In this document: in pieces, positions 22,270-33,900 of the stretch
Numbering within the stretch: position 1 is the first letter of the stretch
Layout of the letters: every line of letters begins with the position of its first letter
From: a virus
Taxonomy: Duplodnaviria > Heunggongvirae > Uroviricota > Caudoviricetes
DNA: 64,000 nucleotides
Direction: 5' to 3' (one strand)
IMG/VR virus record: IMGVR_UViG_2778261505_000002
Program-made: the position numbers and the translations under genes
Notes under the pieces: generated by a model
The model's database searches: none
What the model was told of the DNA's origin: nothing
The model's input: only the letters and a program-made list of their open reading frames with translations

Positions 22270-22485
22270 ATGATCGTATTAAGTAAACGGGAGAAGGAAA
22301 CGCTTCATGAAATCAGTAAGTGGCCGGAGTTCCCTGAGTACTGGAAGCCTAAAACGCGAGCTAAGTTAGAGCGTTTAGGGTTGGTTGCAAACGTTTCTGA
22401 AACGTGGTGTTCGGCCAACTACCAGTTAACTGATAAAGGGAAAGTATTGCTACAGCAATTAGTAGAATCAGGAGCGTTAAAATGA
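22270..22485 (+). CDS. Hypothetical small protein
   Basis: 71-aa ORF with AAGGAG RBS. Confidence 0.4.
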   Translation: MIVLSKREKETLHEISKWPEFPEYWKPKTRAKLERLGLVANVSETWCSANYQLTDKGKVLLQQLVESGALK

Positions 22486-22630
22486 TTCCATACATCTCAT
22501 TAGCTTTTATGGGTGGCTTCCTTATCGGCTTCGGCATCTGTCGTGATTTAATTAAGCAGGAACTTAAAACCAAAACACTGTGCATCGGAAAGCGTGTGTA
22601 TCGGGTAGTTCATGAAACAAAGGTGAAAAT

Positions 22631-22921: not shown

Positions 22922-23699
22922 AAACATATTGATAAGTATTTACTTACTTATCTTTTATGTATAAGATGACTTTGTTTTCGTTGAGACGCGACTGTTTGAA
23001 CTTAAATACAAGTGCAAACGAAGAAGTCTATCTGGCAGTAGCCTAATAAGCCAAACACCAGCGAGGTCAGTTTCCAGCCTCGTTACCGAAATGGGACACA
23101 CTGAGCGAGTGTGATTGCAGAACGCAGGAGGGAACATTCATGTTCCCTCCGATGAAGTAACAGAATGGGCGGTTGGTATATTTTCAACTCCATATGACTC
23201 CCGGATTCTTAGCCACTGACCGCCCATCCTGTTACGTCATTTTGTTCAATTATGTCGTTTATACTGGGTTAAAAAGCGGCGACGTAGCCCGGCTGGTATG
23301 GTTAGCCAGCACACAACGTTGAGGCCATTACATTTTTATCAATTCTAAGGTTCTATTCACAGAGATACCGGCGAGCGTTGATATGTAACATGTTGGGCAA
23401 ACATTCAATCGGAGTAGTGGCCTCAACGTTGTGAAGACAGGATTGTTGTGTAGGTTTAACCACTGTTGCCATTGGTGCCTGTTTTCACAACAAATGATTC
23501 CATACATCACATTGTATAAATTACAAAGTAGGTGCTGTCCTCAGAAACATCATCTACTTAAAGATTTTGCCTTCTACTATTGAGCGAAGTCGAAAGCGTC
23601 TGGCACTAACGAAAAGTGCAAGTAGCGGTGCGTTTCCTGGCAGAAACTAAACCGTCGCGATTGGCACTGTTGAGTAATAAATACTGGCAGTGCTGAATT

Positions 23700-23774
23700 G
23701 ATGGTGTAGCTCAGCGGTAGAGCAGTTGGCTGTTAACCAACTGGTCGGTGGTTCGAATCCACCCACCATCGCCA
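23700..23774 (+). tRNA. tRNA-Asn (anticodon GTT)
   Basis: Cloverleaf folded by hand: 7-bp acceptor stem GATGGTG/CACCATC, anticodon loop CTGTTAA, GGTTCGAATCC T-arm, encoded CCA. Confidence 0.85.
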
Positions 23775-23779
23775 ATTTA

Positions 23780-23866
23780 GGGGAGTTAGTCCGTAGAGGT
23801 AGCGGTGTAGACTGTAAATCTACTGTCATTGCGACTCGGGTGGTTCGACTCCATCACTCCCCACCA
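23780..23866 (+). tRNA. tRNA-Tyr (anticodon GTA), long variable arm
   Basis: Acceptor GGGGAGT/ACTCCCC, anticodon stem-loop GTAGA-CTGTAAA-TCTAC, long variable arm, T-loop TTCGACT, CCA; D-arm pairing is atypical. Confidence 0.75.
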
Positions 23867-23870
23867 AATT

Positions 23871-23946
23871 GCCGGTTTAGCTCAGTTGGTAGAGCGCCTG
23901 CCTTGTAAGCAGGATGTCAGCGGTTCGAGTCCGTTAACCGGCACCA
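23871..23946 (+). tRNA. tRNA-Thr (anticodon TGT)
   Basis: Acceptor GCCGGTT/AACCGGC, D-arm GCTCAGTTGGTAGAGC, anticodon loop CTTGTAA, T-loop TTCGAGT, CCA. Confidence 0.85.
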
Positions 23947-24163
23947 ACACAACAGGAAAGAGCATTGAAAACCGCCGAGACTGCCCTGTTTTAAGCGTAA
24001 GTCCGTGCAAACGTCATACAGTGCTCTTTTCGTTGTGGTTGATGCGCAGACTGATGCGCGGAAAGAAATGCCCCAGCGACACACGAGGCGAGTTCACACA
24101 CTGCAATGCAGTCAGTAGCCGGGGTCGCTAAGCCGGAGATCAGTACCGGTAACCACAACAATT

Positions 24164-24250
24164 GGAGAGTAGGGAGCATGGTGCTCAAGCGGTCTTGAAA
24201 ACCGTCCCATTGTGCAAGCGATGATGGTTCGATTCCATTACTCTCCGCCA
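24164..24250 (+). tRNA. tRNA-Ser (anticodon TGA), type II with long variable arm
   Basis: Acceptor GGAGAGT/ACTCTCC, anticodon loop CTTGAAA, 17-nt variable arm, T-loop TTCGATT, CCA. Confidence 0.75.
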
Positions 24251-24405
24251 GACACAGCGTTGAGCGGTTTGGCCTTTTAATCACCCAGATTAAGACTCCG
24301 CTAACATAAACCAGACCGCTCAACGCTGTGATAGACAATTACGGCAGACGTTCTTAACCATAGCTTGCTAACATCCTAGCAACACTTTTTTTCAGCGCAA
24401 AATTC

Positions 24406-24428
24406 AAAGGGGCTTCGGCCCCTTTTTT
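24406..24428 (+). terminator. Rho-independent terminator
   Basis: AAAGGGGC-TTCG-GCCCCTTTTTT: GC stem, tetraloop, T-tract; closes the tRNA cluster. Confidence 0.85.
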
Positions 24429-24471
24429 GCAACTGAAAGAGTCAAGTCTACGAACTTTGTAGGAAGAAATA

Positions 24472-24822
24472 ATGACCAGCAAAGAGAACACACCACTAAA
24501 AGTCACCCCTGAACACATTGAACAACTCATTCAAAGTGAACATTATTTCACTGCATATGATGCCAGCCACGGGGATAACTTCATCTCTGTTTACAATTCA
24601 AAAACAGATATCGACAAAGGTCATGAGTCGTTAAAACTCTTAACGTTCTGCGTTATGGTTCTCAAAAATGGATATACCGTAACGGGAAAATCTGCGTGCG
24701 TAAGACCAGAAATCTTCAACTTTGATGTTGGTCGCGAGTACGCTCGAAAAGATGCTATCGATCAAATCTGGCCCCTGGAAGGCTATCTCCTGAAGCAAAA
24801 GTGGCATGAGGCAAAGCAATGA
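24472..24822 (+). CDS. Hypothetical protein
   Basis: 116-aa ORF; stop overlaps the glutaredoxin start. Confidence 0.45.
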   Translation: MTSKENTPLKVTPEHIEQLIQSEHYFTAYDASHGDNFISVYNSKTDIDKGHESLKLLTFCVMVLKNGYTVTGKSACVRPEIFNFDVGREYARKDAIDQIWPLEGYLLKQKWHEAKQ

Positions 24823-25064
24823 CGATCACTATCTACGGACGAGATAACTGCTCATACTGCAAACGTGCGGTCGAGCTGGCGAAGCAACTAAAGGGACATG
24901 GCTACGGTGATTATGAGTACATCGACATCACCACTGCCGGTATCGACAAGGAAAAACTAAGTGAAATTGTTGGTAAACCGGTAGAGACTATCCCCCAAGT
25001 GCTGATCGATGGCCAACCGATTGGCGGATACACTGAACTGGCTGCATACGTCAGCACCCTCTGA
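24819..25064 (+). CDS. Glutaredoxin (NrdH/NrdC-like redoxin)
   Basis: 81 aa with CSYC redox motif near the N-terminus and TIPQV...G motif; thioredoxin-fold size. Confidence 0.8.
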   Translation: MTITIYGRDNCSYCKRAVELAKQLKGHGYGDYEYIDITTAGIDKEKLSEIVGKPVETIPQVLIDGQPIGGYTELAAYVSTL

Positions 25065-25066
25065 TT

Positions 25067-25095
25067 TTAACGGCTCACAGGAGCCGTTTTTATTC
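25067..25095 (+). terminator. Rho-independent terminator
   Basis: AACGGCTC-ACAG-GAGCCGTT followed by TTTTATT. Confidence 0.75.
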
Positions 25096-25274
25096 CCACC
25101 AAACTCACTCCCGTTTCCCTTAAAATTCAAAAAACAACGTCAAAATGATTCCATACCTACTATGTATGGAATCATTACTGAAAATGAGTTACTTTTACTC
25201 TTGATCCTATAAGAATCTATGCCTAATATACTGTTTACTTATACAGTGAATCGGCGTAACTCGGTGATTGTCAT

Positions 25275-26378
25275 ATGAAAAATAGCTTTGACAGAGCACG
25301 CGCTGCGGAGAACACCTCAAAAGAGGCGATTGAGTATCTCGAAAGAGCATCTCAAATGCAGGCCGTTATGATCTCGCAGGTTAGCAATGATATGAGATTC
25401 TCGGACGCATTCATGTTATTTACTCGCTTATCTCTGCTGATAACCAGACGTCGGCCAGAGATCGCTGTTCATTGTATTTTGATACATGTTTTGCCGCACA
25501 TTGCCGATGTAAAAGTAAGTGACATTAATAGGTTCATGGTGAACCAACTGGTCAACCCACTAATACTGGATGGCAAAATTGTTATGGGCCGCCGCGTTTT
25601 CTCTCTGATGAAGCAGTTCCTTAGCTGGTGCGCCTTCCAGGGGATGATAGACGTGTCACCGTTAAACGATATGTCACTTAACAAAGTTGCCGGTGGCGCA
25701 AAGCCCACACCTCGCGAGCGGAAGCTGACCGACGCAGAGGTATGGGTGTTCTGGAATATATGGGACTACTTCAATGTGTGCGCTGGTACAAAATGGGCGG
25801 CCAGGCTGTGTCTTGTATCCGCAAGACGACCTGACGAAGTACTGCGGGCTAAAAAAAGTGAGTTCAATCTTAAGCGTGGGGTTTGGAATCAAGGCAAGAG
25901 GAACAAATCTGCCCGTGAGCATTCGCTGCCTTTAAGCACATTAATGCGCACATGTATTGAAGAGTTGTTCGAATACGGTAAAGGCAGCCAGTGGCTCGTG
26001 CCTTCGAATAAAAAAATCGGGAAAGACCTTCCTATGTCTAAAGTGGCAATAGCCCAGGCATTACGTCGTATTCTGGAACGACCAGAACTGATGGAGCTTG
26101 AGCCATTTACACCCCGAGACTTGCGCCGTACTGCGCGTAGTTACTTCCCAGCATTAGGCATAAGCCAGGAGGTATCACGTAAAATCATGAACCACAGTCT
26201 TGAGGGGATAGATCGAGTCTACGACCGGCACGATTATATGGACGAGATGCGAGACGCCTTAGAAAGTTTCTCGACGTACATCGCATCAATCGTAGAGCAA
26301 CCGGATTTAGACGAAATTGACCACAAATTCAAGGGAGATCGTCTATCAACAGAGCTTATTCGTGTAAATTTTTCATAG
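25275..26378 (+). CDS. Tyrosine site-specific recombinase (integrase or resolvase)
   Basis: C-terminal catalytic-domain pattern (…RRPDEV…, FTPRDLRRTARSY, MNHSLEGIDRVYDRHDY) consistent with the R-H-R-Y signature. Confidence 0.7.
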   Translation: MKNSFDRARAAENTSKEAIEYLERASQMQAVMISQVSNDMRFSDAFMLFTRLSLLITRRRPEIAVHCILIHVLPHIADVKVSDINRFMVNQLVNPLILDGKIVMGRRVFSLMKQFLSWCAFQGMIDVSPLNDMSLNKVAGGAKPTPRERKLTDAEVWVFWNIWDYFNVCAGTKWAARLCLVSARRPDEVLRAKKSEFNLKRGVWNQGKRNKSAREHSLPLSTLMRTCIEELFEYGKGSQWLVPSNKKIGKDLPMSKVAIAQALRRILERPELMELEPFTPRDLRRTARSYFPALGISQEVSRKIMNHSLEGIDRVYDRHDYMDEMRDALESFSTYIASIVEQPDLDEIDHKFKGDRLSTELIRVNFS

Positions 26379-26759
26379 AGACTTTATGGCCTCAACAACC
26401 TTTTGTGATGCGCCTTTCTCTTTACCGAATCGCTCGTTATATGCAGCAAGAACCTGTTTTTCGTCCTCGTTAAGAGGAGCGGTGCCTTCTTTGTATAAAA
26501 ATGCTGCGAGTTCAGGTTGGCGTTCTTCCAGCACCATCATCATAAGACGACTTGGCTCAATACCCAGCGCCAGCGCCAACGGACGAACCTTATCGATAGG
26601 CAAAGGAATTTTGCCACTTTTAATTAAAGAAAGGTTGTTGGCATTTTTATAACCAATAAGTCTGGCTATTTGGGCCTGACTCATAGGTGAGGATTCAATC
26701 AGCCCTGCGATAAAAGCAGCATAGCGACTTTCTATAAATTCAATCTTGTTGTCAGACAT
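26373..26759 (-). CDS. XRE-family helix-turn-helix transcriptional regulator
   Basis: HTH segment (MSQAQIARLIGYKNANNLSLIKSGK); start set at internal ATG (track ORF extends to 26789); divergent from the downstream AT-rich region. Confidence 0.65.
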   Translation of the reverse strand: MSDNKIEFIESRYAAFIAGLIESSPMSQAQIARLIGYKNANNLSLIKSGKIPLPIDKVRPLALALGIEPSRLMMMVLEERQPELAAFLYKEGTAPLNEDEKQVLAAYNERFGKEKGASQKVVEAIKSL

Positions 26760-27010
26760 TGTTACAACCTTTGCGCGTTCAATTCTCACTGGTAAGTGCT
26801 TACCGATATTACATCAAAGGTTAGGGTTGTAAAGCTATTATCATTTTTTTCGATAGGCACTTAAAAGACCGGTTAAAGGCCATTGCACGGAGAAAAATTA
26901 GCCCAAAACAGGTAAGAAAATTAACTTGTATATGATATGAATGTATTCAGTATTGATATAAATTTTAGTAGTATTCCTTACCATAGTATAAGTTAGAATG
27001 GATTGATTGA

Positions 27011-27223
27011 ATGAACACCACTATTTCCAGCCTAATCGCTCTTGAGATCGGACACGTACAGAAATTAGCTGATGAGTGTGTAGCTGACATCCTCACCGAT
27101 CTACCGAATGAGCAGATTCAGGTTGGTGTGAATGACACAACTGGCTTTATATTCGAATTTAACAACAAACGCTTCACGCTTCTCAATACCGGCTCCGGGT
27201 CTTTAGCCGTCAGAATCTGTTAA
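27011..27223 (+). CDS. Hypothetical small protein
   Basis: 70-aa ORF followed by an inverted repeat (CTGCGCGAA...TTCGCGCAG). Confidence 0.35.
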   Translation: MNTTISSLIALEIGHVQKLADECVADILTDLPNEQIQVGVNDTTGFIFEFNNKRFTLLNTGSGSLAVRIC

Positions 27224-27321
27224 CCCCTCTTCTCCCTGCGCGAATGGCTTAGTTCCCTGTTCGCGCAGTGCTACATTAAACACACTAGTAAATAATTTGT
27301 TTTCATAACAAAGGATTAGCC

Positions 27322-29430
27322 ATGTCTAAAAAACGTTCCATCAAAGAGGTTCAGGACTTCCGTGACAGTGTAAAACGAGTAGTCGCTCTCCTTTCAGGTA
27401 AAAACATCCCTGTTGCAGAACGAGGGGACGACGCTTATGTTCGCTATAACGATGATGGAGAGCCAATTCTCGTAAACATCCCATCAATCCCGGATAACGC
27501 AACACCGGCATTGATGAATGCTGTGCGCGGATTTCTCGATCATGAGGTTGCTCACATTTTGTTTACCGATATTCGTGTGTCCAACAAAATGAGAGAAAAA
27601 GGACGCGTTCCTTCCTGGTCGCTATGGAATGCCTTAGAAGACGTGTTCATCGAGCGAAAAATGGGTCAGGTCTTTAACGGAACAAGACGTAATCTGATGG
27701 CAACTCAGCGCCTTATAATCGAAAAAGTCTTTAAACCAAAGGCTTCAGAGGCTATTGCTTATTGTGGCAAAGATCAGCGCGCGCTTTTTCTAAACTTCTT
27801 TCTCTGTCCGGTTGTAAGAGCCTGGGATGGCCAAGCACCGTTCGTAGATTTCATGGATGAATATTGGCCTGTCATTGAGAAACCAATTTCATTATTAAAA
27901 GAACATGGTATCGATGTGGCCGTGCGTAACATGTCTTGCACCGAGGATTGTGTAAAGGTGGCTGCGACCATAGCTAAGATCCTCAAAGACACTGAAAGTG
28001 AAAGCAAAGGTAAGGAGTCAGCTCCGGGAAAAACTTCCGATCCTTCAGACGCTGACCAGACGGATGCCTCTGGAGAAAACAGTGAAGACAACGAAGATCA
28101 TGAGACACCCTCAGTGTTAGATAATCACAAATCTATCAAATCAGAATCACACAGTAAGCACAAACATGATAATAACGACAGTGATGATTCAGATAATTCT
28201 GAATCATCAGAAACAATATTCGATGATACAGAAAATGATAAAGAGGTATCAGATTCTGATGCTTCTGATAACGCGGCGTCAGAATCATTAACCGCTGACC
28301 ACGAAAAAAGAAAAACGACAGAAGACGGCTCTTCAGATATCCCAACTCCGTCAAAAATGAGTCTGGAAGAGGCTTTAGAGGAGTTGGATAGCATGGAAGA
28401 TGAAGTCGGAGGCATGACAGAAGATGCGCTATCCGAAACGATTAAAAGCGAGTTAACAGAAAGCTCGAAAAGCGAATACAGGCCATACAATCGCTCATAC
28501 GACTTCATCGGCTCGATTGATCAGGCAGAAGCCCATATCAAACGGCTTATTAAAACATTCTCCGATATTGATTTGGGAGGATATCCAATCAGCCGCTATC
28601 GCATCGTTCCTGAAGGCAACCAGCTCTTCGACAAATATATTGAAAAGCATCTTTCGTCAGGTGTTTCGTCGACGCTGGCAAAAGACCTGGAGCGAGCAAT
28701 AGCAAGCAGAAACAGAGTTCAGTTTATACCGGGCCAGCGTCGGGGGCGCATTCATGGTTCTAGTATCTACAGATTAGCAATGAATGATGCTCGCGTGTTT
28801 CGTAAAAAAGAAGAATCTAAAGCCGTTAACGCCTGTGTTCAACAAGTGATTGATTTATCAGGTTCAATGAGTGGTATAACGATACAATTGGCTCTTGCAA
28901 GTGCATATACCATCGCCGATGCCCTTGATCGAATAAATGTTCCCAACATTATCACCGGCTTCACTACATTTGGTAGTCATATGGCGGCAGGAGAACTTAA
29001 GGCTGTCAAGTATGAGTTCTCTCGCTTTGAATCTTTAATGCTACCTATCATCAAAAATTGGAATGAAAAGGTAAATTCTCGCGAAGTTCGCTCACGTATG
29101 GGGTGCGTAGGCTACACATTCCCACTTCTTAATAACGTGGATGGTGAAAGCATAGCCAGCCTTGCATCGTTATTTTCCGGTCGCTTGGAGGACAGGAAGA
29201 TCATGCTTGTTCTGAGTGATGGCGCGCCGTGGGCTGTTGGGAGAGGTTTTGACGCTCATTTGCGTTCAGTTGCGAAGCAAATTGAAACGCAGACTGATAT
29301 TGATTTGATGGCAATTGGCATCATGACTGACGCACCGGAGAGATTTTACTCAAATCATGCCCTGGTAACGAGCGTTGATAGTCTTGGTTCATCTGTAGTT
29401 ACTGAACTATCTCGTATCATTTTAAAGTGA
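27322..29430 (+). CDS. vWA-domain protein with acidic Ser/Asp-rich linker (CobT-like partner of an AAA+ ATPase)
   Basis: C-terminal MIDAS-type motif (VIDLSGSMSG ... LVLSDGAP); ~130-aa low-complexity acidic stretch (SDDSDNSESSE...); directly upstream of a MoxR/CobS-like AAA+ gene. Confidence 0.65.
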   Translation: MSKKRSIKEVQDFRDSVKRVVALLSGKNIPVAERGDDAYVRYNDDGEPILVNIPSIPDNATPALMNAVRGFLDHEVAHILFTDIRVSNKMREKGRVPSWSLWNALEDVFIERKMGQVFNGTRRNLMATQRLIIEKVFKPKASEAIAYCGKDQRALFLNFFLCPVVRAWDGQAPFVDFMDEYWPVIEKPISLLKEHGIDVAVRNMSCTEDCVKVAATIAKILKDTESESKGKESAPGKTSDPSDADQTDASGENSEDNEDHETPSVLDNHKSIKSESHSKHKHDNNDSDDSDNSESSETIFDDTENDKEVSDSDASDNAASESLTADHEKRKTTEDGSSDIPTPSKMSLEEALEELDSMEDEVGGMTEDALSETIKSELTESSKSEYRPYNRSYDFIGSIDQAEAHIKRLIKTFSDIDLGGYPISRYRIVPEGNQLFDKYIEKHLSSGVSSTLAKDLERAIASRNRVQFIPGQRRGRIHGSSIYRLAMNDARVFRKKEESKAVNACVQQVIDLSGSMSGITIQLALASAYTIADALDRINVPNIITGFTTFGSHMAAGELKAVKYEFSRFESLMLPIIKNWNEKVNSREVRSRMGCVGYTFPLLNNVDGESIASLASLFSGRLEDRKIMLVLSDGAPWAVGRGFDAHLRSVAKQIETQTDIDLMAIGIMTDAPERFYSNHALVTSVDSLGSSVVTELSRIILK

Positions 29431-29525: not shown

Positions 29526-30761
29526 ATGACGACTACTGCACTGCAAAATGAAAAAAATCCTTCTGATTACCTTGTTTGCAAGTGGTGCGGCAAATCATTT
29601 CACTATTTTAAGTCCCATGTAGCCAATGGTAATTGCGAGGGCATTCCTGAGTCAGTAAAAGATGCCGATCCTGACACCGTACTGAAAATGTACACAACGC
29701 AGTTTCCAGATGAACCAACGCTATCGAAAAAGGCACTTGATGCAATTCAAGCTAAACGTGCCGAGCAAAAAAGCGAAATGGCCAAATCTTCTGGCTTGAC
29801 CAGTAGCCCTGGCTACACAGGCACAGTTGAGTACAAGACAGATCTGGTCGCAGCTCACGAACTGCTAAACGTAACGGTGGAAGAACTCGGAACAAAACGT
29901 GGGACGCCGCTCATGGTTAGCGTCAACGTCAATACGCCGTATCCAGAGTTCGTTCCCGAAGTGAAGAAAGGCTACGTATATGGCGACTTCGAACTGATCA
30001 AAGATATTTTCATGATGCTTGAACTTGGCATACCTGGCTATTTGTGGGGTCATGCAGGAACAGGCAAATCGTCATTGCCTACACAGCTATGTGCTTTGCT
30101 CAATCGTCCGTTGATCCGTGCCCAACATACAGCATCAATGGAAGAGGCACATGTTACGGGGCAAATTCTGGCGCGTGATGGCTCTACGTATTTCGAACCT
30201 GGCTTGCTTGCGCTCGCAATGAAGCATGGCTGGGTTTACCTCGCGGATGAATACGACTTTGCGTTTCCACAAATTCTTGGCGTGTATCAGCCAGTGCTGG
30301 AAGGTGAAGCGTTGGTCATCAAAGAGGCAACTCCAGAATGGCGTCGCATTACTCCGCATGAACGGTTTGCTTTCATTGGCACTGGCAACACGAACGGATC
30401 TGGTGATGAAACCGGCTTGTACCAGGGTACAAACATCCAGAACGCCGCGAACTTTTCGCGTTTTGGCATCGTTTCGAATGTGAAATACATGAGCAAAGAC
30501 GCAGAGATCAACATGCTGACAAATGCAGGCATCGTGGATGAATACGCTGAAAAGATGGTTAAGTTTGCCGGTATCGTTCGCGATGGATACGAAGAACACC
30601 TCATTAGTCAGCCAATTGGCCCTCGTGAACTTTTGTTGTCGGCCAAGATTGGAATGATGCGAGGCGACTTTGTGACAGGTATTGAGCGTTCTTTCATTAA
30701 CAAACTCCCTTCAGCTTCTGCACAAGCGGCTCGTGAAGTTGTTCAAAAAATATTTGGTTAA
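29526..30761 (+). CDS. AAA+ ATPase, MoxR/CobS-like
   Basis: Walker A GHAGTGKSS, Walker B (WVYLADEYD), sensor region; N-terminal Cys/His cluster (CKWCGKSFHYFKSH). Confidence 0.7.
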   Translation: MTTTALQNEKNPSDYLVCKWCGKSFHYFKSHVANGNCEGIPESVKDADPDTVLKMYTTQFPDEPTLSKKALDAIQAKRAEQKSEMAKSSGLTSSPGYTGTVEYKTDLVAAHELLNVTVEELGTKRGTPLMVSVNVNTPYPEFVPEVKKGYVYGDFELIKDIFMMLELGIPGYLWGHAGTGKSSLPTQLCALLNRPLIRAQHTASMEEAHVTGQILARDGSTYFEPGLLALAMKHGWVYLADEYDFAFPQILGVYQPVLEGEALVIKEATPEWRRITPHERFAFIGTGNTNGSGDETGLYQGTNIQNAANFSRFGIVSNVKYMSKDAEINMLTNAGIVDEYAEKMVKFAGIVRDGYEEHLISQPIGPRELLLSAKIGMMRGDFVTGIERSFINKLPSASAQAAREVVQKIFG

Positions 30762-30941: not shown

Positions 30942-33900
30942 ATGAAGGCACTGATGGTTCGAACTGACTTCTCACTTGGGGAGTCGGCTCTAAAAGCAGA
31001 AAACGCGGTGAAGATTGCCAGAGAAGCTGGCTACACCGCTGTAATTTCAGCAGATAGCATGAATATTGCGAGCGTTATTCCACTACAACGTGCCGCTGGT
31101 GACGACATGGCGGTTATTTGTGGTGTGAAACTAAACATTGTTGATGATCCCACATACGAGCACCGGGCTAAACTTGCTAAAGAATCTATGAGATGTATGG
31201 AATCATTAGAGCGAGGACGTAACTACTCGTTTACCGCTCTAATTAAAAATGAGAAAGGATATCGCGACATCTGCGAACTAATGACGGCGGCCAACACACG
31301 AGAACAGTTCTACTTTGTACCGCGTCTCTCGCTCGAACAGTTGGTTTCTACATATGCCAAAGGCAACATCATCCTGCTTACTTCCGACATCGGTAGCGTG
31401 TTCCAACGCAACGATTTTGCAAAAATCATAAGCACACTGATTACAGCGGGTGGAAAAGACAACTTCTATAGTGTGGTTTATCCGCACCCTACCCCATTCT
31501 ACGACCAGATTAACGTCCGGGCGATGAAAGTCGCCAGCGCATTGAAAATAGAGCCAGTGGCGTTCTATCCCGCTTATTACGAATCGATCGACGATGCAGA
31601 CATTAAAGACATTGCGCACATGGTTACGAACAACATCAAAATCGACCAGCCGCATCGTCTGCGTATCCCCCACCAGCGAGATAACGCCGTCAATGGTCGC
31701 CGCCATCTCCTTGAGGCGCTTAAAGCCTTCTCCGTTCGCATGGATGTGCCGGTAACAGCTGCAATGGCCTCAACAACGCAGGATACCATTATCGATGCCT
31801 GCACATGGCGCTGGCATGAATTGCCGCCAGCACTGCCAAAGATGGCAGACGACGAGCCTGCAACGCTGATGAAACTGGCTGTTGCAGGGCTGCGTAAACG
31901 TCTTACCACAAAAGAGTTTGGATACACACCACCTGCTTCTGAGAACAGGGTTTATGTTGAGCGGCTAAAGTACGAAATGGACACGCTGACTCGCCTGGGA
32001 TTCTGTGGTTACTTCCTGATGGTACGCGATCTGATGAATCACAGCCGTGAAACTGGCATTCCTGTCGGGCCTGGTCGTGGTTCCTCCGCTGGATCTCTGG
32101 TGGCATGGTGCATAGGCATAACCAACGTCGACCCAATCCGTCACGGTCTTCTGTTTGAGCGTTTCATCAACCCTGAGCGTCTCGACTTGCCAGATGCGGA
32201 TTTGGACTTCAGCCAGGCACGTCGCCATGAGGTGATCGAGTATCTGAATGAACGATACGGCGAAGATTACGTTGCAGGTATTCCTAACTTCACATATCTG
32301 GGCGCAGCCTCTGCACTACGTGACACCGCTCGTATTTATGGTGTGGAGTCCGCAGATATGGCGGTATCAAAAGAGCTGAGGAACGTCGAGGATGATAGCC
32401 TTCCATTGGAAGAGCTGCGCGAACAACTGGCAAGTCTCGACAAATACGCGACAAAATACCCTGATGCATTCAATGCAGCCTGCAAGTTACAAAGCCTTAT
32501 GCGTGGCTTTGGTAGACATGCGGCAGGGATGATTGTAGCAGGTGTTCCTCTGACAGAACGTACACCGGTTGAACGACGTGGTGACGCGCGTTGTATCGCA
32601 TTTGACAAGCGTTACTGCGAGGCTATGGGCCTAATTAAGCTGGACGTGCTTGGCCTGGCAACTCTCGATTTGCTCGATAGTGCAAAACGCTACATAAAAG
32701 AGAACACAGGTGAAGATATCAATCTTGATGCCATTTCTCTTGAAGATCGCAAGGTGCTGGATGGTTTTGCTGCTGGGTACACTCAAGGTGTTTTCCAGCT
32801 TGAATCAGGCCCAATGCGCAAGCTGCTTAAAGATTTAGGTGGTGGAATTGAGCCAATGAGCTTTAAAACGGTCGTTGCTACGACTGCGCTCTTCCGGCCG
32901 GGGCCAATTCAGTCAGGCATGTTGGATGATTATGTTTCTGTCGCCAAAGGCTTTATGACGCCGGAATCATTACACCCCGTTCTTGATGAACTTACCGCAG
33001 AAACAAATGGCGTGATTCTTTATCAGGAACAGACGATGAACGCGACTCGATTGCTTGCTGGCTTCACAATGGCTGAAGCTGACGGCGTTCGTAAAGCGAT
33101 CGGCAAAAAAGACATGGAGAAAATGAAGAGCATGGGTGAGAAGTTCATCGTTCAGGCTCAAGCTGGCTGGATAGACGTTGAGCTGGAAGATGGCACTACA
33201 CAGCGCATTCACCGTGCGGAACATTTTAAATGCGAAGACGGAACACTGAAAACTGTCGAAGAGGCACTTGAGTACGGCGCAAAACTACCTATAAACGCAG
33301 TACGCGTTACAGCGTCACATCCAGGGCTATCAGAGATGAAAGCGAAGGAGATCTGGACCGCATTCGAAAAGAATGGTGCCTACCAGTTCAACAAATCACA
33401 CTCTGTTGCTTACTCCTTAATCAGTTATCAATCTATGTGGTTGAAAACTCATTATCCCGCAGAGTTTTTCGCTGCTGCTCTCACTATTCTTGGCGAAGAT
33501 AAACACCAGGGGCTGGTTAAAGATGCGCTGACCTATGGTATTCGCGTATTGCCACCAGACGTTAACGTGTCATCTAACCGAATCGAGATCCGCACGCTTG
33601 AAGATGGCAGCCAGGTGCTGTATGCGCCCTTCTCTGCTGTGAAAGGGTGTTCTGAGAATGGCTGCCAAGCCATCATGAGAGCGCGAGAAAAAGTTGGCGG
33701 CAAATTCGAGTCACTGGCGCAATTCGAAGAAGCTGTCGAGAAACGTGCCTGTAATAGTCGAGTGCGCGAATCACTGCAAAAAGTAGGTGCGTTTGCATCC
33801 ATCGAGCCAGGTAGTCTGCCAGCAACTGATCCAGAGCGTCTCCGCGACCAGGCTGAATTGATGGGAAACCTTGTCATAGACGCAGTTAAAGCCTCACGTC

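What the first reader, a model, noticed from the sequence alone, without database searches (positions are those of the whole stretch)
25275..27010. Tyrosine recombinase divergent from an XRE regulator with an AT-rich control region
The recombinase (plus strand) ends where a minus-strand XRE-family HTH gene ends; upstream of the regulator is a ~220-bp AT-rich region with a GGTAAGTGCTTACC palindrome. In an extrachromosomal prophage the recombinase is more likely a multimer-resolution enzyme than an integrase, and the XRE protein is a candidate lysogeny repressor that may bind the genome-wide palindromic motif.
Basis: inference. Interest (0 to 1): 0.5.

Follow-up and report, generated by a model that had tools for sequence, protein, structure and literature searches.

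The report
SOS-controlled lox-like recombinase beside prophage repressor
In this plasmid-borne prophage (SSU5/pHCM2/pMT1 family), the "integrase" most likely keeps plasmid copies as single circles by recombining a 31-bp site just upstream of its own gene, is held in check by the host DNA-damage repressor LexA, and sits tail-to-tail with the probable prophage repressor.

Summary
The window is an E. coli SSU5-like phage-plasmid, 97.7% identical to phage Cyrano/pLF82. The genes, the palindrome and the AT-rich region are real. However, the recombinase and the HTH gene are convergent (6-bp 3' overlap), not divergent.

It holds a 12-7-12 inverted repeat (ATGATTCCATAC-N7-GTATGGAATCAT). The arms are invariant across genera and the spacer varies by lineage. 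In 43-48%-identical homologues, including ones on non-phage megaplasmids, both arms carry the same two mirrored changes (TGACTCCAGAC). Downstream lie a conserved promoter and a LexA box.

The protein has no arm-binding domain. All 254 E. coli copies are on plasmids. No dif/cer-like site and no second site-specific recombinase was found. This supports a Cre/lox-like multimer-resolution module under SOS control.

Three lone half-sites point inward toward the core, are conserved, and are unexplained.

The HTH protein is a plausible repressor. It is transcribed in Cyrano lysogens. GGTAAGTGCTTACC lies at +1 of its predicted promoter and belongs to a 20-bp palindrome family of 12 mostly intergenic copies in the window. 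Which protein binds that motif is untested.

No biochemical activity has been shown for any of this.

The parts
25069..25088 (+). Intrinsic terminator of the upstream glutaredoxin gene. It marks the right end of the conserved left block. In relatives, cargo genes are inserted between here and the site.
   Evidence: 8-bp stem, T-run; cargo in relatives.
25120..25144 (.). Semi-conserved A-rich flank (..TTCAAAAAA..) immediately left of the site. Homology between lineages ends about 25-30 nt left of the left arm.
25145..25175 (.). Candidate core recombination site: ATGATTCCATAC - CTACTAT - GTATGGAATCAT (12-bp inverted arms, 7-bp spacer).
   Evidence: The arms are invariant in 8 aligned lineages and in about 110 independently oriented loci (the tally of 138 counts about 10 loci in both orientations), with at least 11 spacer variants. 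Both arms change symmetrically to TGACTCCAGAC in Int homologues of 43-48% identity. There is one full site per 110-kb genome.
25201..25229 (+). Predicted int promoter: -35 TTGATC (25201-25206), 17-bp spacer, -10 TAATAT (25224-25229).
   Evidence: Read from the sequence. The hexamers are conserved in alignment A1. They match 8 of 12 consensus positions, so the scan did not list them.
25229..25248 (.). LexA (SOS) box TACTGTTTACTTATACAGTG, covering the predicted transcription start of int.
   Evidence: It is the only CTGT-N8-ACAG in the 64-kb window and one of only two in each complete relative. CTGT/ACAG is invariant across the Enterobacteriaceae lineages.
25275..26378 (+). Tyrosine recombinase ('Int'), 367 aa, with core-binding and catalytic domains only. 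Catalytic residues are R185, K211, R284, H307 and Y316; R281 replaces the usual His of HxxR.
25881..25891 (-). Degenerate half-site (TGATTCCAAAC, 1 mismatch) inside int. It is an exact TGATTCCATAC at about +735 in many other lineages, but it overlaps the invariant W-N-Q codons, so it may be a coding coincidence.
26373..26759 (-). HTH (XRE-like) regulator, 128 aa, probable prophage repressor. It has no S24 peptidase domain. Its 3' end overlaps int by 6 bp.
   Evidence: CYRAN_45 is expressed in lysogens. The tail-to-tail overlap of 4-32 bp is kept in all phage-plasmid lineages examined.
26791..26804 (.). Palindrome GGTAAGTGCTTACC, a candidate operator lying 1 nt downstream of the -10 of the HTH gene's promoter.
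   Evidence: It is conserved in pHCM2, pMT1, Enterobacter and Klebsiella (where it is GGTAAGTACTTACC).
26806..26833 (-). Predicted promoter of the HTH gene: -35 TTTACA (26833-26828), 16-bp spacer, -10 TAATAT (26811-26806).
   Evidence: the only sigma-70-like hit in 24900-27400. The block is invariant.
26850..26863 (.). Second, inverted, partial copy of the operator half (TCGATAGGCACTTA). It is only weakly conserved.
   Evidence: repeat I3.
26933..26974 (.). Conserved block with two tandem 21-nt repeats upstream of orf70. Its function is unknown; it may be the early promoter or a binding region.
   Evidence: repeat D1.
27011..27223 (+). orf70, the first gene of the rightward cobT-cobS-dnaE operon. 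It is divergent from the HTH gene. It belongs to PHROG_2627 (function unknown).
   Evidence: Its Cyrano homologue rises from log2 4.3 to 10.8 in macrophages.
22482..22493 (+). Lone half-site ATGATTCCATAC(ATC), pointing toward the core.
23494..23505 (+). Lone half-site ATGATTCCATAC(ATC), pointing toward the core.
31195..31206 (-). Lone half-site inside dnaE (codons C-M-E-S), pointing toward the core.
   Evidence: 25 of 26 loci with enough right flank carry it.

Best explanation
The locus is the conserved 'Int / repressor' module of SSU5-pHCM2-pMT1-type phage-plasmids.

(1) Int is a simple (Cre- or Xer-like, two-domain) tyrosine recombinase. Its substrate is the 31-bp site at 25145-25175, 100 bp upstream of its own gene: two Int-binding 12-bp inverted arms around a 7-bp crossover spacer. 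Recombination between two directly repeated copies, as in a plasmid dimer made by RecA, returns the prophage to monomers so that it can be partitioned.

(2) The int promoter is repressed by host LexA. Int is therefore made at a low level in lysogens and at a higher level after DNA damage, when recombination and lytic replication increase.

(3) The convergent 128-aa HTH protein is the prophage repressor. It autoregulates through GGTAAGTGCTTACC at +1 of its own promoter. It probably also binds the roughly 20 related 20-bp palindromes scattered through the intergenic regions of the genome.

Shown here: the sequence anatomy, its conservation, the arm/protein co-variation, the plasmid-only location, and the absence of an arm-binding domain. 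Taken from a paper: expression in lysogens, and induction of the phage by ciprofloxacin or mitomycin C. Inferred: all biochemical activities (Int binding and recombination, LexA binding, HTH binding).
For: Identity of the element.

Int chemistry and fold: Pfam and PHROG hits. R185, K211, R284 and Y316 are invariant and H307 is at least 90% conserved in 44 homologues. The alignment to lambda Int gives the residue equivalences. The AlphaFold2 model has pLDDT 84 and an all-helical N-terminus. The best fold match is the lambda Int core plus catalytic domains. PF13356 arm-binding domains occur only in hits of 34% identity or less.

The site: the arms are invariant and the spacer variable. The same 12-7-12 layout lies 73-173 nt upstream of int in every homologue examined. 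The two arm changes are mirrored in Rahnella, Pantoea, Erwinia, Xenorhabdus and Providencia. There is one full site per genome.

Plasmid lifestyle: 254 places in 251 of 5426 complete E. coli genomes, all on plasmids. Of 837 PLSDB records, 802 are non-mobilizable. In 185,579 species genomes the site was found in only 7, on contigs of 12-169 kb. Homologues lie on 437-723-kb replicons or contigs with no phage genes nearby.

No other site-specific recombinase is annotated, and no dif/cer-like site scores better than chance.

LexA: a single box in the window, at the promoter; only two boxes per complete genome. Cyrano is induced 39-fold by ciprofloxacin, and SSU5-like phage-plasmids are induced by mitomycin C. 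Int mRNA is about 5 times the Cyrano background in LB and rises about 25-fold in macrophages.

HTH.
Against: No recombination, binding or regulation was measured.

A LexA-repressed resolvase is unusual. In the macrophage data the neighbouring genes rise too, by 4-88-fold, so SOS-specific induction of int is not shown.

The canonical His of HxxR is an invariant Arg in this clade, and its effect on catalysis is unknown.

The conserved lone half-sites are not needed by a plain Cre/lox model.

The LexA box is absent from the Chimaeribacter, Nissabacter and class-B loci.

For the HTH protein, the local palindrome's flanks (ACT...GAT) differ from the family consensus (ATA...TAT). The family members lie at inconsistent distances from promoters and start codons. 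Other regulators are encoded in the genome.

Pfeifer et al. list 'resolvases' among the persistent families of the SSU5 supergroup, so another resolution enzyme is not strictly excluded.
Confidence: 0.6

Rival explanations
1. Int serves mainly the lytic or infection cycle rather than plasmid maintenance. After SOS induction or infection it would recombine the site either to circularise incoming DNA or to fuse monomer circles into multimers that the terminase can package. This is the kind of auxiliary role that Cre/lox and lambda Int can play.
For: LexA control places peak expression at induction. The phage is SOS-inducible. Int and the early gene orf70 rise together in the public RNA-seq data.
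Against: Homologues with the same site lie on non-phage megaplasmids. Phage-plasmid lineages without a LexA box keep the module. Int is already transcribed in lysogens at about 5 times background. The two roles are not mutually exclusive.
Confidence: 0.2
2. Int is a true integrase that inserts the phage into a chromosomal site such as a tRNA gene. On this view the plasmid state is only one of two lifestyles.
For: The nearest characterised relatives by sequence and fold are phage integrases of the P4 and lambda types. Databases annotate the gene as 'site-specific integrase'. My own recollection, not checked here, is that chromosomal integration of pMT1/pFra in Y. pestis has been reported.
Against: There are 0 chromosomal places among 254 in complete E. 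coli genomes. The full site is absent from chromosome-sized contigs in 185,579 species genomes. There is no arm-binding domain. No excisionase was recognised nearby. The spacer differs between lineages that share hosts. The 2026 typing paper regards chromosomal phage-plasmid remnants as rare and not integrase-mediated.
Confidence: 0.05
3. The HTH protein is only a local regulator of itself and the orf70 operon. The genome-wide 20-bp palindrome would then be bound by a different factor, or act at the RNA level as an 8-bp stem with a GUAC loop.
For: The local copy matches the 20-mer consensus with 4 mismatches, all in the flanks. Family members lie 2-220 nt from the next start codon with no constant promoter geometry, and some are followed by hairpins. 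They also occur between late structural genes (with the annotation).
Against: The central 14 bp at the HTH promoter is the best match in the window. It is conserved together with a near-invariant recognition helix across lineages. GTAAGTA-type motifs persist next to the diverged HTH genes of pCAV, Xenorhabdus and Providencia. Dispersed operator sets are known for the P1 C1 and L5 gp71 repressors (and established knowledge).
Confidence: 0.3

Closest known systems
Cre / loxP of phage-plasmid P1
   Same: A single two-domain tyrosine recombinase encoded by a plasmid prophage. Its target lies near the gene and consists of two inverted arms (13 bp in loxP, 12 bp here) around an asymmetric spacer (8 bp against 7 bp). 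The proposed job, multimer resolution, is the same.
   Different: There is no detectable sequence relationship; Foldseek to Cre gives only E 0.04-0.1 and phmmer finds nothing. This protein is nearest to the P4 and lambda integrase lineage. Here the promoter carries a LexA box and there are conserved lone half-sites kilobases away.
Single-recombinase resolution modules with a gene-adjacent site: XerS/difSL, XerH/difH, ResD/rfsF of F, Rsd/crs of Salmonella virulence plasmids
   Same: The recombinase gene and its inverted-repeat site are inherited as one cassette. The site is single-copy per replicon. The module occurs on large low-copy replicons.
   Different: Those systems are not close in sequence; the profile hit to XerH is E 2e-4 and to XerD 3e-6. 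FtsK dependence is unknown here. Spacer length and arms differ. The comparison with ResD and Rsd rests on my own knowledge and was not tested.
TnpI / IRS of Tn4430
   Same: A tyrosine recombinase whose core inverted repeats are supplemented by extra copies of the same binding motif, which are not cleaved.
   Different: In the IRS the accessory motifs lie within about 100 bp on one side (PMC2847244 abstract). Here the lone half-sites lie 1.6-6 kb away on both sides and point inward.
Lambda Int and P4-type integrases
   Same: They give the best sequence-profile and fold matches for the core-binding and catalytic domains. They also use a 7-bp overlap region.
   Different: This protein lacks the N-terminal arm-binding domain. 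No arm-type sites, no Xis and no integrated copies were found.
Integron integrase IntI (LexA-regulated tyrosine recombinase next to attI and variable cargo)
   Same: There is a LexA box at the recombinase promoter, and the layout is cargo - site - promoter - recombinase.
   Different: The boundary between conserved and variable DNA lies about 25-30 bp outside the left arm, not in the spacer. There are no attC-like repeats in the cargo. The fold match to IntI4 is weaker than to lambda Int. It is not a member of this family.
Dispersed-operator prophage repressors: P1 C1, and mycobacteriophage L5 gp71 'stoperators'
   Same: One repressor-type motif occurs about 20 times in short intergenic gaps all over the genome, including one copy at the repressor gene itself.
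   Different: Those sites are asymmetric (PMC9283540), whereas here the motif is a 20-bp palindrome. Binding by the HTH protein is unproven.

Membership tests
Tyrosine recombinase superfamily (PF00589) | Pfam model score above the gathering threshold | tested here: met
   39.4 bits against a 27.1-bit cut-off, E 6.8e-10. PHROG_1 'integrase' scores 1.1e-46.
Tyrosine recombinase superfamily (PF00589) | Catalytic R-K-H-R-H/W-Y set, including the tyrosine nucleophile | tested here: inconclusive
   R185, K211, R284 and Y316 are invariant and H307 is at least 90% conserved. Equivalences come from the alignment to lambda Int. The His of HxxR (lambda H308) is an invariant Arg (R281) in all 44 clade members.
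Tyrosine recombinase superfamily (PF00589) | Two-domain fold: helical core-binding domain plus catalytic domain | tested here: met
   AlphaFold2 pLDDT 84.4. Foldseek to lambda Int 75-356 gives E 3e-6 and target-normalised TM 0.71-0.73.
Heterobivalent phage integrases (lambda and P4 types) | N-terminal arm-binding domain | tested here: not met
   There is no PF13356 or other arm-domain hit. That domain appears only in homologues of 34% identity or less. The modelled N-terminus is all-helical.
Heterobivalent phage integrases (lambda and P4 types) | The element is found integrated in host chromosomes | tested here: not met
   0 of 254 places in 5426 complete E. coli genomes are chromosomal. Contigs carrying the site are 169 kb or less.
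Heterobivalent phage integrases (lambda and P4 types) | Adjacent excisionase or directionality factor | tested here: inconclusive
   The neighbours are the HTH gene and orf70. There is no excisionase hit in Pfam or PHROGs, but orf70 has unknown function.
Cre/lox-type simple resolution systems (functional class) | Target made of two inverted recombinase-binding arms flanking a 6-8-bp asymmetric spacer | tested here: met
   A 12-7-12 site at 25145-25175. Arm conservation, mirrored co-variation and spacer variability are shown.
Cre/lox-type simple resolution systems (functional class) | One full site per replicon | tested here: met
   One full site each in p4_0.2 (110 kb) and pHCM2 (107 kb).
Cre/lox-type simple resolution systems (functional class) | Recombinase resolves dimers or deletes DNA between direct repeats of the site | not testable with these tools
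   This needs an in vivo or in vitro recombination assay.
Cre family (sequence membership) | Detectable homology to Cre | tested here: not met
   No phmmer hit in the PDB. Cre is absent from the profile hits. Foldseek E is 0.04 or higher.
LexA (SOS) regulon | CTGT-N8-ACAG box overlapping the promoter or transcription start | tested here: met
   Box at 25229-25248, directly after the -10. It is the only such box in the window and is conserved across genera.
LexA (SOS) regulon | LexA binding and DNA-damage-inducible transcription | tested here: inconclusive
   In public RNA-seq, Int rises from log2 5.6 in LB to 10.3 in macrophages at 6 h, but neighbouring genes rise as well. No lexA mutant data exist.
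XRE / Cro-CI-type HTH repressors | HTH_3-like DNA-binding domain | tested here: inconclusive
   HTH_19 scores 18.9 bits, below the 30.2-bit cut-off. PHROG_8 'transcriptional regulator' scores 6.6e-12.
XRE / Cro-CI-type HTH repressors | Palindromic operator at its own or the divergent promoter | tested here: met
   GGTAAGTGCTTACC lies 1 nt downstream of the predicted -10 and is conserved. Binding itself was not tested.
LexA/CI-type self-cleaving repressors | C-terminal S24 peptidase domain | tested here: not met
   The protein is 128 aa with no S24 hit. Induction must therefore use another route, such as an antirepressor.
Integrons | Cargo joined at the recombination crossover point, with attC-type sites between cassettes | tested here: not met
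   Homology continues about 25-30 nt beyond the left arm. No second full site occurs in the cargo.

The most novel reading that the evidence does not exclude
The module may be more than a resolvase placed next to a repressor. In one version, SOS-released transcription from Pint runs, with no terminator in the way, antisense into the overlapping repressor gene and helps tip the lysis-lysogeny switch; this would be a LexA-gated convergent-transcription trigger. In another version, Int bound at the inward-pointing lone half-sites forms a polar, Ter- or KOPS-like or looped architecture around the crossover site. That architecture would couple dimer resolution to replication or packaging in a way not described for any tyrosine recombinase.
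Probability: 0.12. Interest if true: 0.75.

Novelty: new variant of a known kind. Interest (0 to 1): 0.5.

Why it matters
This module is present in hundreds of sequenced plasmids (837 PLSDB records). They include pMT1 of Yersinia pestis, pHCM2 of Salmonella Typhi, and resistance-carrying Klebsiella, Enterobacter and E. coli phage-plasmids. Recent overviews state that phage-plasmids typically lack integrases.

If the model holds, it has four consequences:
- It defines the maintenance recombinase and its 31-bp site for this whole supergroup.
- It yields a natural set of orthogonal lox-like sites: two arm classes and at least 11 spacers.
- It links plasmid-prophage stability to the SOS response.
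- It explains why the flank of the site is a cargo hotspot. The F1 capsule operon of pMT1, toxin-antitoxin genes and resistance genes all lie there.

The dispersed palindrome gives a concrete, testable operator set for the still uncharacterised immunity system of these elements.

Tried and rejected
- Integron-like cargo capture at the site. Rejected because the junction between conserved and variable DNA lies about 25-30 nt left of the left arm, not in the spacer, and the cargo has no second site.
- The int-upstream palindrome as an intrinsic terminator. Rejected because no T-run follows it on either strand and no gene reads into it.
- Chromosomal integration. No chromosomal copy was found.
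- Host Xer-mediated resolution. No dif/cer-like site scored better than chance.
- A single-sequence PDB search found nothing. A profile was needed.
- Rfam found only the four tRNAs and a sub-threshold tmRNA-like hit; there was nothing in either control region.
- The 20-bp palindrome as a fixed operator in the -35/-10 spacer. This fits some sites (38551, 51572), but others lie 2-12 nt from start codons. A constant pairing with terminators was not found either.
- Literature searches for the motif, for LexA control, or for a resolution site in SSU5/pHCM2/pMT1 elements returned nothing specific. Subscription-journal papers on plasmid prophages could not be searched.
- The large contigs (0.2-0.9 Mb) listed for the 86%-identical homologue P0006 could not be inspected. 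The places returned were all on plasmid-sized contigs of about 106 kb or shorter fragments.
Full report
WHAT THE WINDOW IS. The region 24400-27400 is 97.7% identical to Escherichia phage Cyrano (pLF82) and 99.6% identical to E. coli plasmid p4_0.2. Both are SSU5-like phage-plasmids of about 108 kb. Cyrano's annotation already calls the two genes 'Integrase' (CYRAN_44) and 'putative repressor' (CYRAN_45). The gene order is [variable cargo] - int(+) - HTH(-) - orf70(+) - cobT - cobS - dnaE. This order is kept in pHCM2 of S. Typhi, pMT1 of Y. pestis, and Klebsiella, Enterobacter, pCAV1099, Xenorhabdus, Providencia and Nissabacter elements.

OBSERVATION CHECK. The ORFs, the palindrome and the AT-rich stretch are all present. 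The stretch 26790-27010 has 31.2% GC against 45.9% for the window, which places it in the lowest 0.03% of 221-bp windows. However, int (25275-26378, +) and the HTH gene (26373-26759, -) are convergent, with a 6-bp overlap of their 3' ends. The HTH gene is divergent from orf70 (27011-27223). Pfam support for 'XRE' is sub-threshold (HTH_19, 18.9 bits), while PHROG_8 'transcriptional regulator' scores 6.6e-12.

THE RECOMBINASE. Pfam Phage_integrase scores 39.4 bits and PHROG_1 scores 1e-46. A profile built from homologues aligns to lambda Int residues 70-342. In 44 clade members of 42-100% identity, R185, K211, R284 and Y316 are invariant and H307 is at least 90% conserved. The usual His of HxxR is an invariant Arg, R281. 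An AlphaFold2 model (pLDDT 84.4) has an all-helical N-terminus, and its best fold match is the lambda Int core-binding plus catalytic domains. The PF13356 arm-binding domain appears only in hits of 34% identity or less. Int is therefore a 'simple' tyrosine recombinase that descends from the P4/lambda integrase lineage.

I aligned the int-upstream DNA of eight lineages. To the left the sequences are unrelated cargo: the caf1 capsule operon in pMT1, YafO toxin genes, a colicin-immunity gene, and CYRAN_43. Homology begins about 25-30 nt before a perfect inverted repeat, ATGATTCCATAC-N7-GTATGGAATCAT (window 25145-25175). The 12-bp arms are invariant. pCAV1099 has a compensated change at the outermost pair, A..T to G..C. 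The 7-bp spacer differs by lineage, with at least 11 variants in roughly 110 oriented loci from IMG/VR, GTDB genomes and PLSDB.

Every homologue I could place on DNA has the same 12-7-12 layout 73-173 nt upstream of int. In the 43-48%-identical proteins of Rahnella, Pantoea, Erwinia, Xenorhabdus and Providencia, the arms read TGACTCCAGAC. That is two substitutions, both mirrored in the two arms. Symmetric co-variation with the protein, together with a freely drifting spacer, is what a recombinase-binding core site looks like when its partner is always a copy of itself. It is not what an attP that must match a host attB would look like. No T-run follows the repeat, so it is not a terminator.

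PLASMID, NOT CHROMOSOME. The region 25065-27320 matches 254 places in 251 of 5426 complete E. coli genomes, and all of them are on plasmids. Of 837 PLSDB records, 802 are non-mobilizable. The exact site occurs in only 7 of 185,579 species genomes, on contigs of 12-169 kb and next to int each time. Three class-B homologues lie on 437-723-kb replicons or contigs among ordinary metabolic genes, with no phage genes nearby. The complete relatives p4_0.2 and pHCM2 have no other annotated site-specific recombinase. They also have no dif/cer-like Xer site that scores better than chance. All of this fits a housekeeping multimer-resolution function.

SOS CONTROL. Between the site and the int start codon lie a conserved -35 TTGATC, a 17-bp spacer, a -10 TAATAT, and directly after that TACTGTTTACTTATACAGTG (25229-25248). 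This is the only CTGT-N8-ACAG in the window. Chance alone would give 0.77 such boxes somewhere in the window, so its weight comes from its position and conservation. CTGT and ACAG are invariant in all Enterobacteriaceae lineages, and the Klebsiella version matches the LexA consensus at 19 of 20 positions. Each complete relative has only one further box, located elsewhere.

Cyrano is induced 39-fold by ciprofloxacin, and SSU5-like phage-plasmids are induced by mitomycin C. In the published LF82 RNA-seq table, Int is at about 5 times the Cyrano background in LB. It rises from log2 5.6 to 10.3 in macrophages at 6 h. Over the same comparison the repressor goes from 6.6 to 9.9, orf70 from 4.3 to 10.8, and cobT from 2.9 to 5.9. 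This is compatible with LexA control but is not specific evidence for it. The box is absent in the Chimaeribacter, Nissabacter and class-B loci, so LexA control is a lineage-specific overlay on the module.

UNEXPLAINED: LONE HALF-SITES. The arm 12-mer occurs only five times in the 110-kb relative: the two core arms and three lone copies. The lone copies are at window 22482(+), 23494(+) and 31195(-, inside dnaE), and each points toward the core. pHCM2 keeps all three at orthologous places although the flanks have diverged. The dnaE copy preserves the synonymous positions of its C-M-E-S codons.

Across all loci, 33 of 44 with at least 4 kb of left flank have (+) copies on the left and none has a (-) copy there. 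Of 26 loci with at least 7.5 kb of right flank, 25 have a (-) copy at about +6.0-6.3 kb and none has a (+) copy. These counts are not phylogenetically independent; the argument rests on conservation, not on statistics. A further copy at about +735 lies over the invariant W-N-Q codons of int and may be a coding coincidence; it has one mismatch in this window. A plain Cre/lox model does not need these sites. They may be accessory Int-binding sites, loosely like DR1 and DR2 of the TnpI IRS, but I could not test this.

THE HTH GENE AND ITS CONTROL REGION. The only sigma-70-like promoter the scan finds in 24900-27400 is on the minus strand: TTTACA, 16 bp, TAATAT at 26833-26806. GGTAAGTGCTTACC begins 1 nt downstream of that -10. 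The whole block is invariant in pHCM2, pMT1, Enterobacter and Klebsiella. The HTH proteins of those elements are 56-66% identical to this one, with a nearly invariant putative recognition helix, NANNLSLIKSGK. The protein has no S24 peptidase domain, so SOS induction must reach it indirectly. The second LexA box of the relatives, which lies outside this window, precedes small genes that could encode an antirepressor.

The local palindrome is the best match in the window to a 20-bp family with consensus about ATAGGTAAGTACTTACCTAT. The family has 12 sites against 0.13 expected, and 11 of 12 are in the 7.7% of the window that is non-coding (P about 6e-12). There are about 20-25 copies per genome in p4_0.2 and pHCM2, including between late genes. 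Their distance to promoters, hairpins and start codons is not constant. I therefore cannot say whether they act as operators, as roadblocks ('stoperator'-like), or as RNA hairpins. The HTH protein is the best candidate binder by position only.

MODEL, AND WHAT IS SHOWN VERSUS INFERRED. Shown by sequence analysis: the anatomy, its conservation, the arm/protein co-variation, the plasmid-only distribution, the lack of an arm-binding domain, and the motif statistics. Taken from papers: repressor and Int transcription in lysogens, and SOS inducibility of the phage. Inferred: Int binds the arms and exchanges strands across the 7-bp spacer to resolve dimers; LexA limits Int in lysogens and releases it on DNA damage; the HTH protein autoregulates and silences the dispersed sites.

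The rivals are a mainly lytic or circularisation role for Int (0.2), true chromosomal integration (0.05), and a purely local role for the HTH protein with another factor binding the palindromes (0.3). A more novel reading is that Pint transcription, which faces the repressor gene with no terminator between them, is part of the SOS trigger. The tail-to-tail overlap of 4-32 bp is conserved in all phage-plasmid lineages examined. Only a weak hairpin at 26599-26615 lies in that path. This reading stays open. It is not favoured, because repressor RNA also rises in macrophages and a separate LexA-controlled locus exists.

COMPARISON AND NOVELTY. The module works like Cre/loxP, or like gene-adjacent single-recombinase systems such as XerS/difSL, but it is not a sequence member of those families. 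It is not a lambda- or P4-type integrase in the functional sense, because arm domain, integration and Xis are all absent. It is not an integron. Gene-level annotation already exists, and 'recombinases to resolve dimers' is the general expectation for phage-plasmids. I found no description of the 31-bp site, its two specificity classes, the LexA box, the polar half-sites or the palindrome regulon, although subscription literature could not be searched. I rate this a new variant of a known kind, of moderate interest.

Noticed in passing
window 5851, 11229, 15976, 22932, 26788, 35031, 38551, 43381, 46888, 51572, 61124, 63338 (20-mers): A genome-wide 20-bp palindrome with consensus about ATAGGTAAGTACTTACCTAT. 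There are 12 copies against 0.13 expected, and 11 of 12 are non-coding. There are about 20-25 copies per genome in p4_0.2 and pHCM2, including between structural genes. The binding factor and the level of action (DNA or RNA) are unknown.
   Followed up: partly
window 22482-22493 (+), 23494-23505 (+), 31195-31206 (-); also 25881-25891 (-): Lone copies of the recombination-site arm, consensus TGATTCCATACAT(C), all pointing toward the core site. They are conserved at orthologous places in pHCM2, Klebsiella, Enterobacter and Nissabacter elements. None was seen within 5 kb on either side in the class-B loci.
   Followed up: partly
window 25089-25144; L001 6850-7404; L003 1-1878; L004 839-2300; L006 17-2333: The gap between the glutaredoxin terminator and the site is a cargo hotspot, and it is empty in this window. 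Relatives carry there CYRAN_43 (723 times background expression), the caf1 F1-capsule operon of Y. pestis pMT1, YafO toxin genes, a colicin-immunity gene, or IS1. The phage-plasmid resistance-gene paper places antibiotic-resistance insertions next to gene families of this neighbourhood (phoH, cobT).
   Followed up: partly
outside the window: p4_0.2 (L009) record 81251-81678; pHCM2 (L018) 29605-29906: The only other exact LexA box in each complete relative lies directly upstream of a small gene: a 129-aa S24-family peptidase in p4_0.2 and an 88-aa hypothetical protein in pHCM2. These are candidates for the SOS-responsive antirepressor that a repressor without a cleavage domain would need.
   Followed up: no
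window 22925-23700 and 23700-24250: A stretch of about 770 bp with no convincing gene contains one palindrome copy, one lone half-site and a sub-threshold tmRNA-like Rfam hit (E 0.023). It precedes a cluster of four tRNA genes (Asn, Tyr, Thr, Ser).
   Followed up: no
window 26933-26974: Two tandem 21-nt repeats (TGATATGAATGTATTCAGTAT / TGATATAAATTTTAGTAGTAT) sit in a block conserved across lineages upstream of orf70. No sigma-70-like promoter was recognised there.
   Followed up: no
window 27011-27223: orf70 (PHROG_2627, function unknown) is conserved in every phage-plasmid lineage examined, directly divergent from the HTH gene. Its Cyrano homologue shows the largest rise among the six neighbouring genes tabulated in macrophages (log2 4.3 to 10.8). 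It could be a Cro-like or early regulator.
   Followed up: no
Int residue 281 (window 26115-26117): The His of the HxxR catalytic motif is an Arg in all 44 clade members (motif RDLRR). This is a clade signature, and its mechanistic consequence is unknown.
   Followed up: partly
L025 5900-5930; L139 4918-4948; L140 4827-4857: Non-phage megaplasmids or large contigs of Rahnella, Pantoea and Erwinia carry the same recombinase-plus-site cassette with class-B arms (GTGACTCCAGAC-N7-GTCTGGAGTCAY). The spacer is TTAATAG or its reverse complement CTATTAA, which is the spacer of pHCM2 and pMT1.
   Followed up: partly
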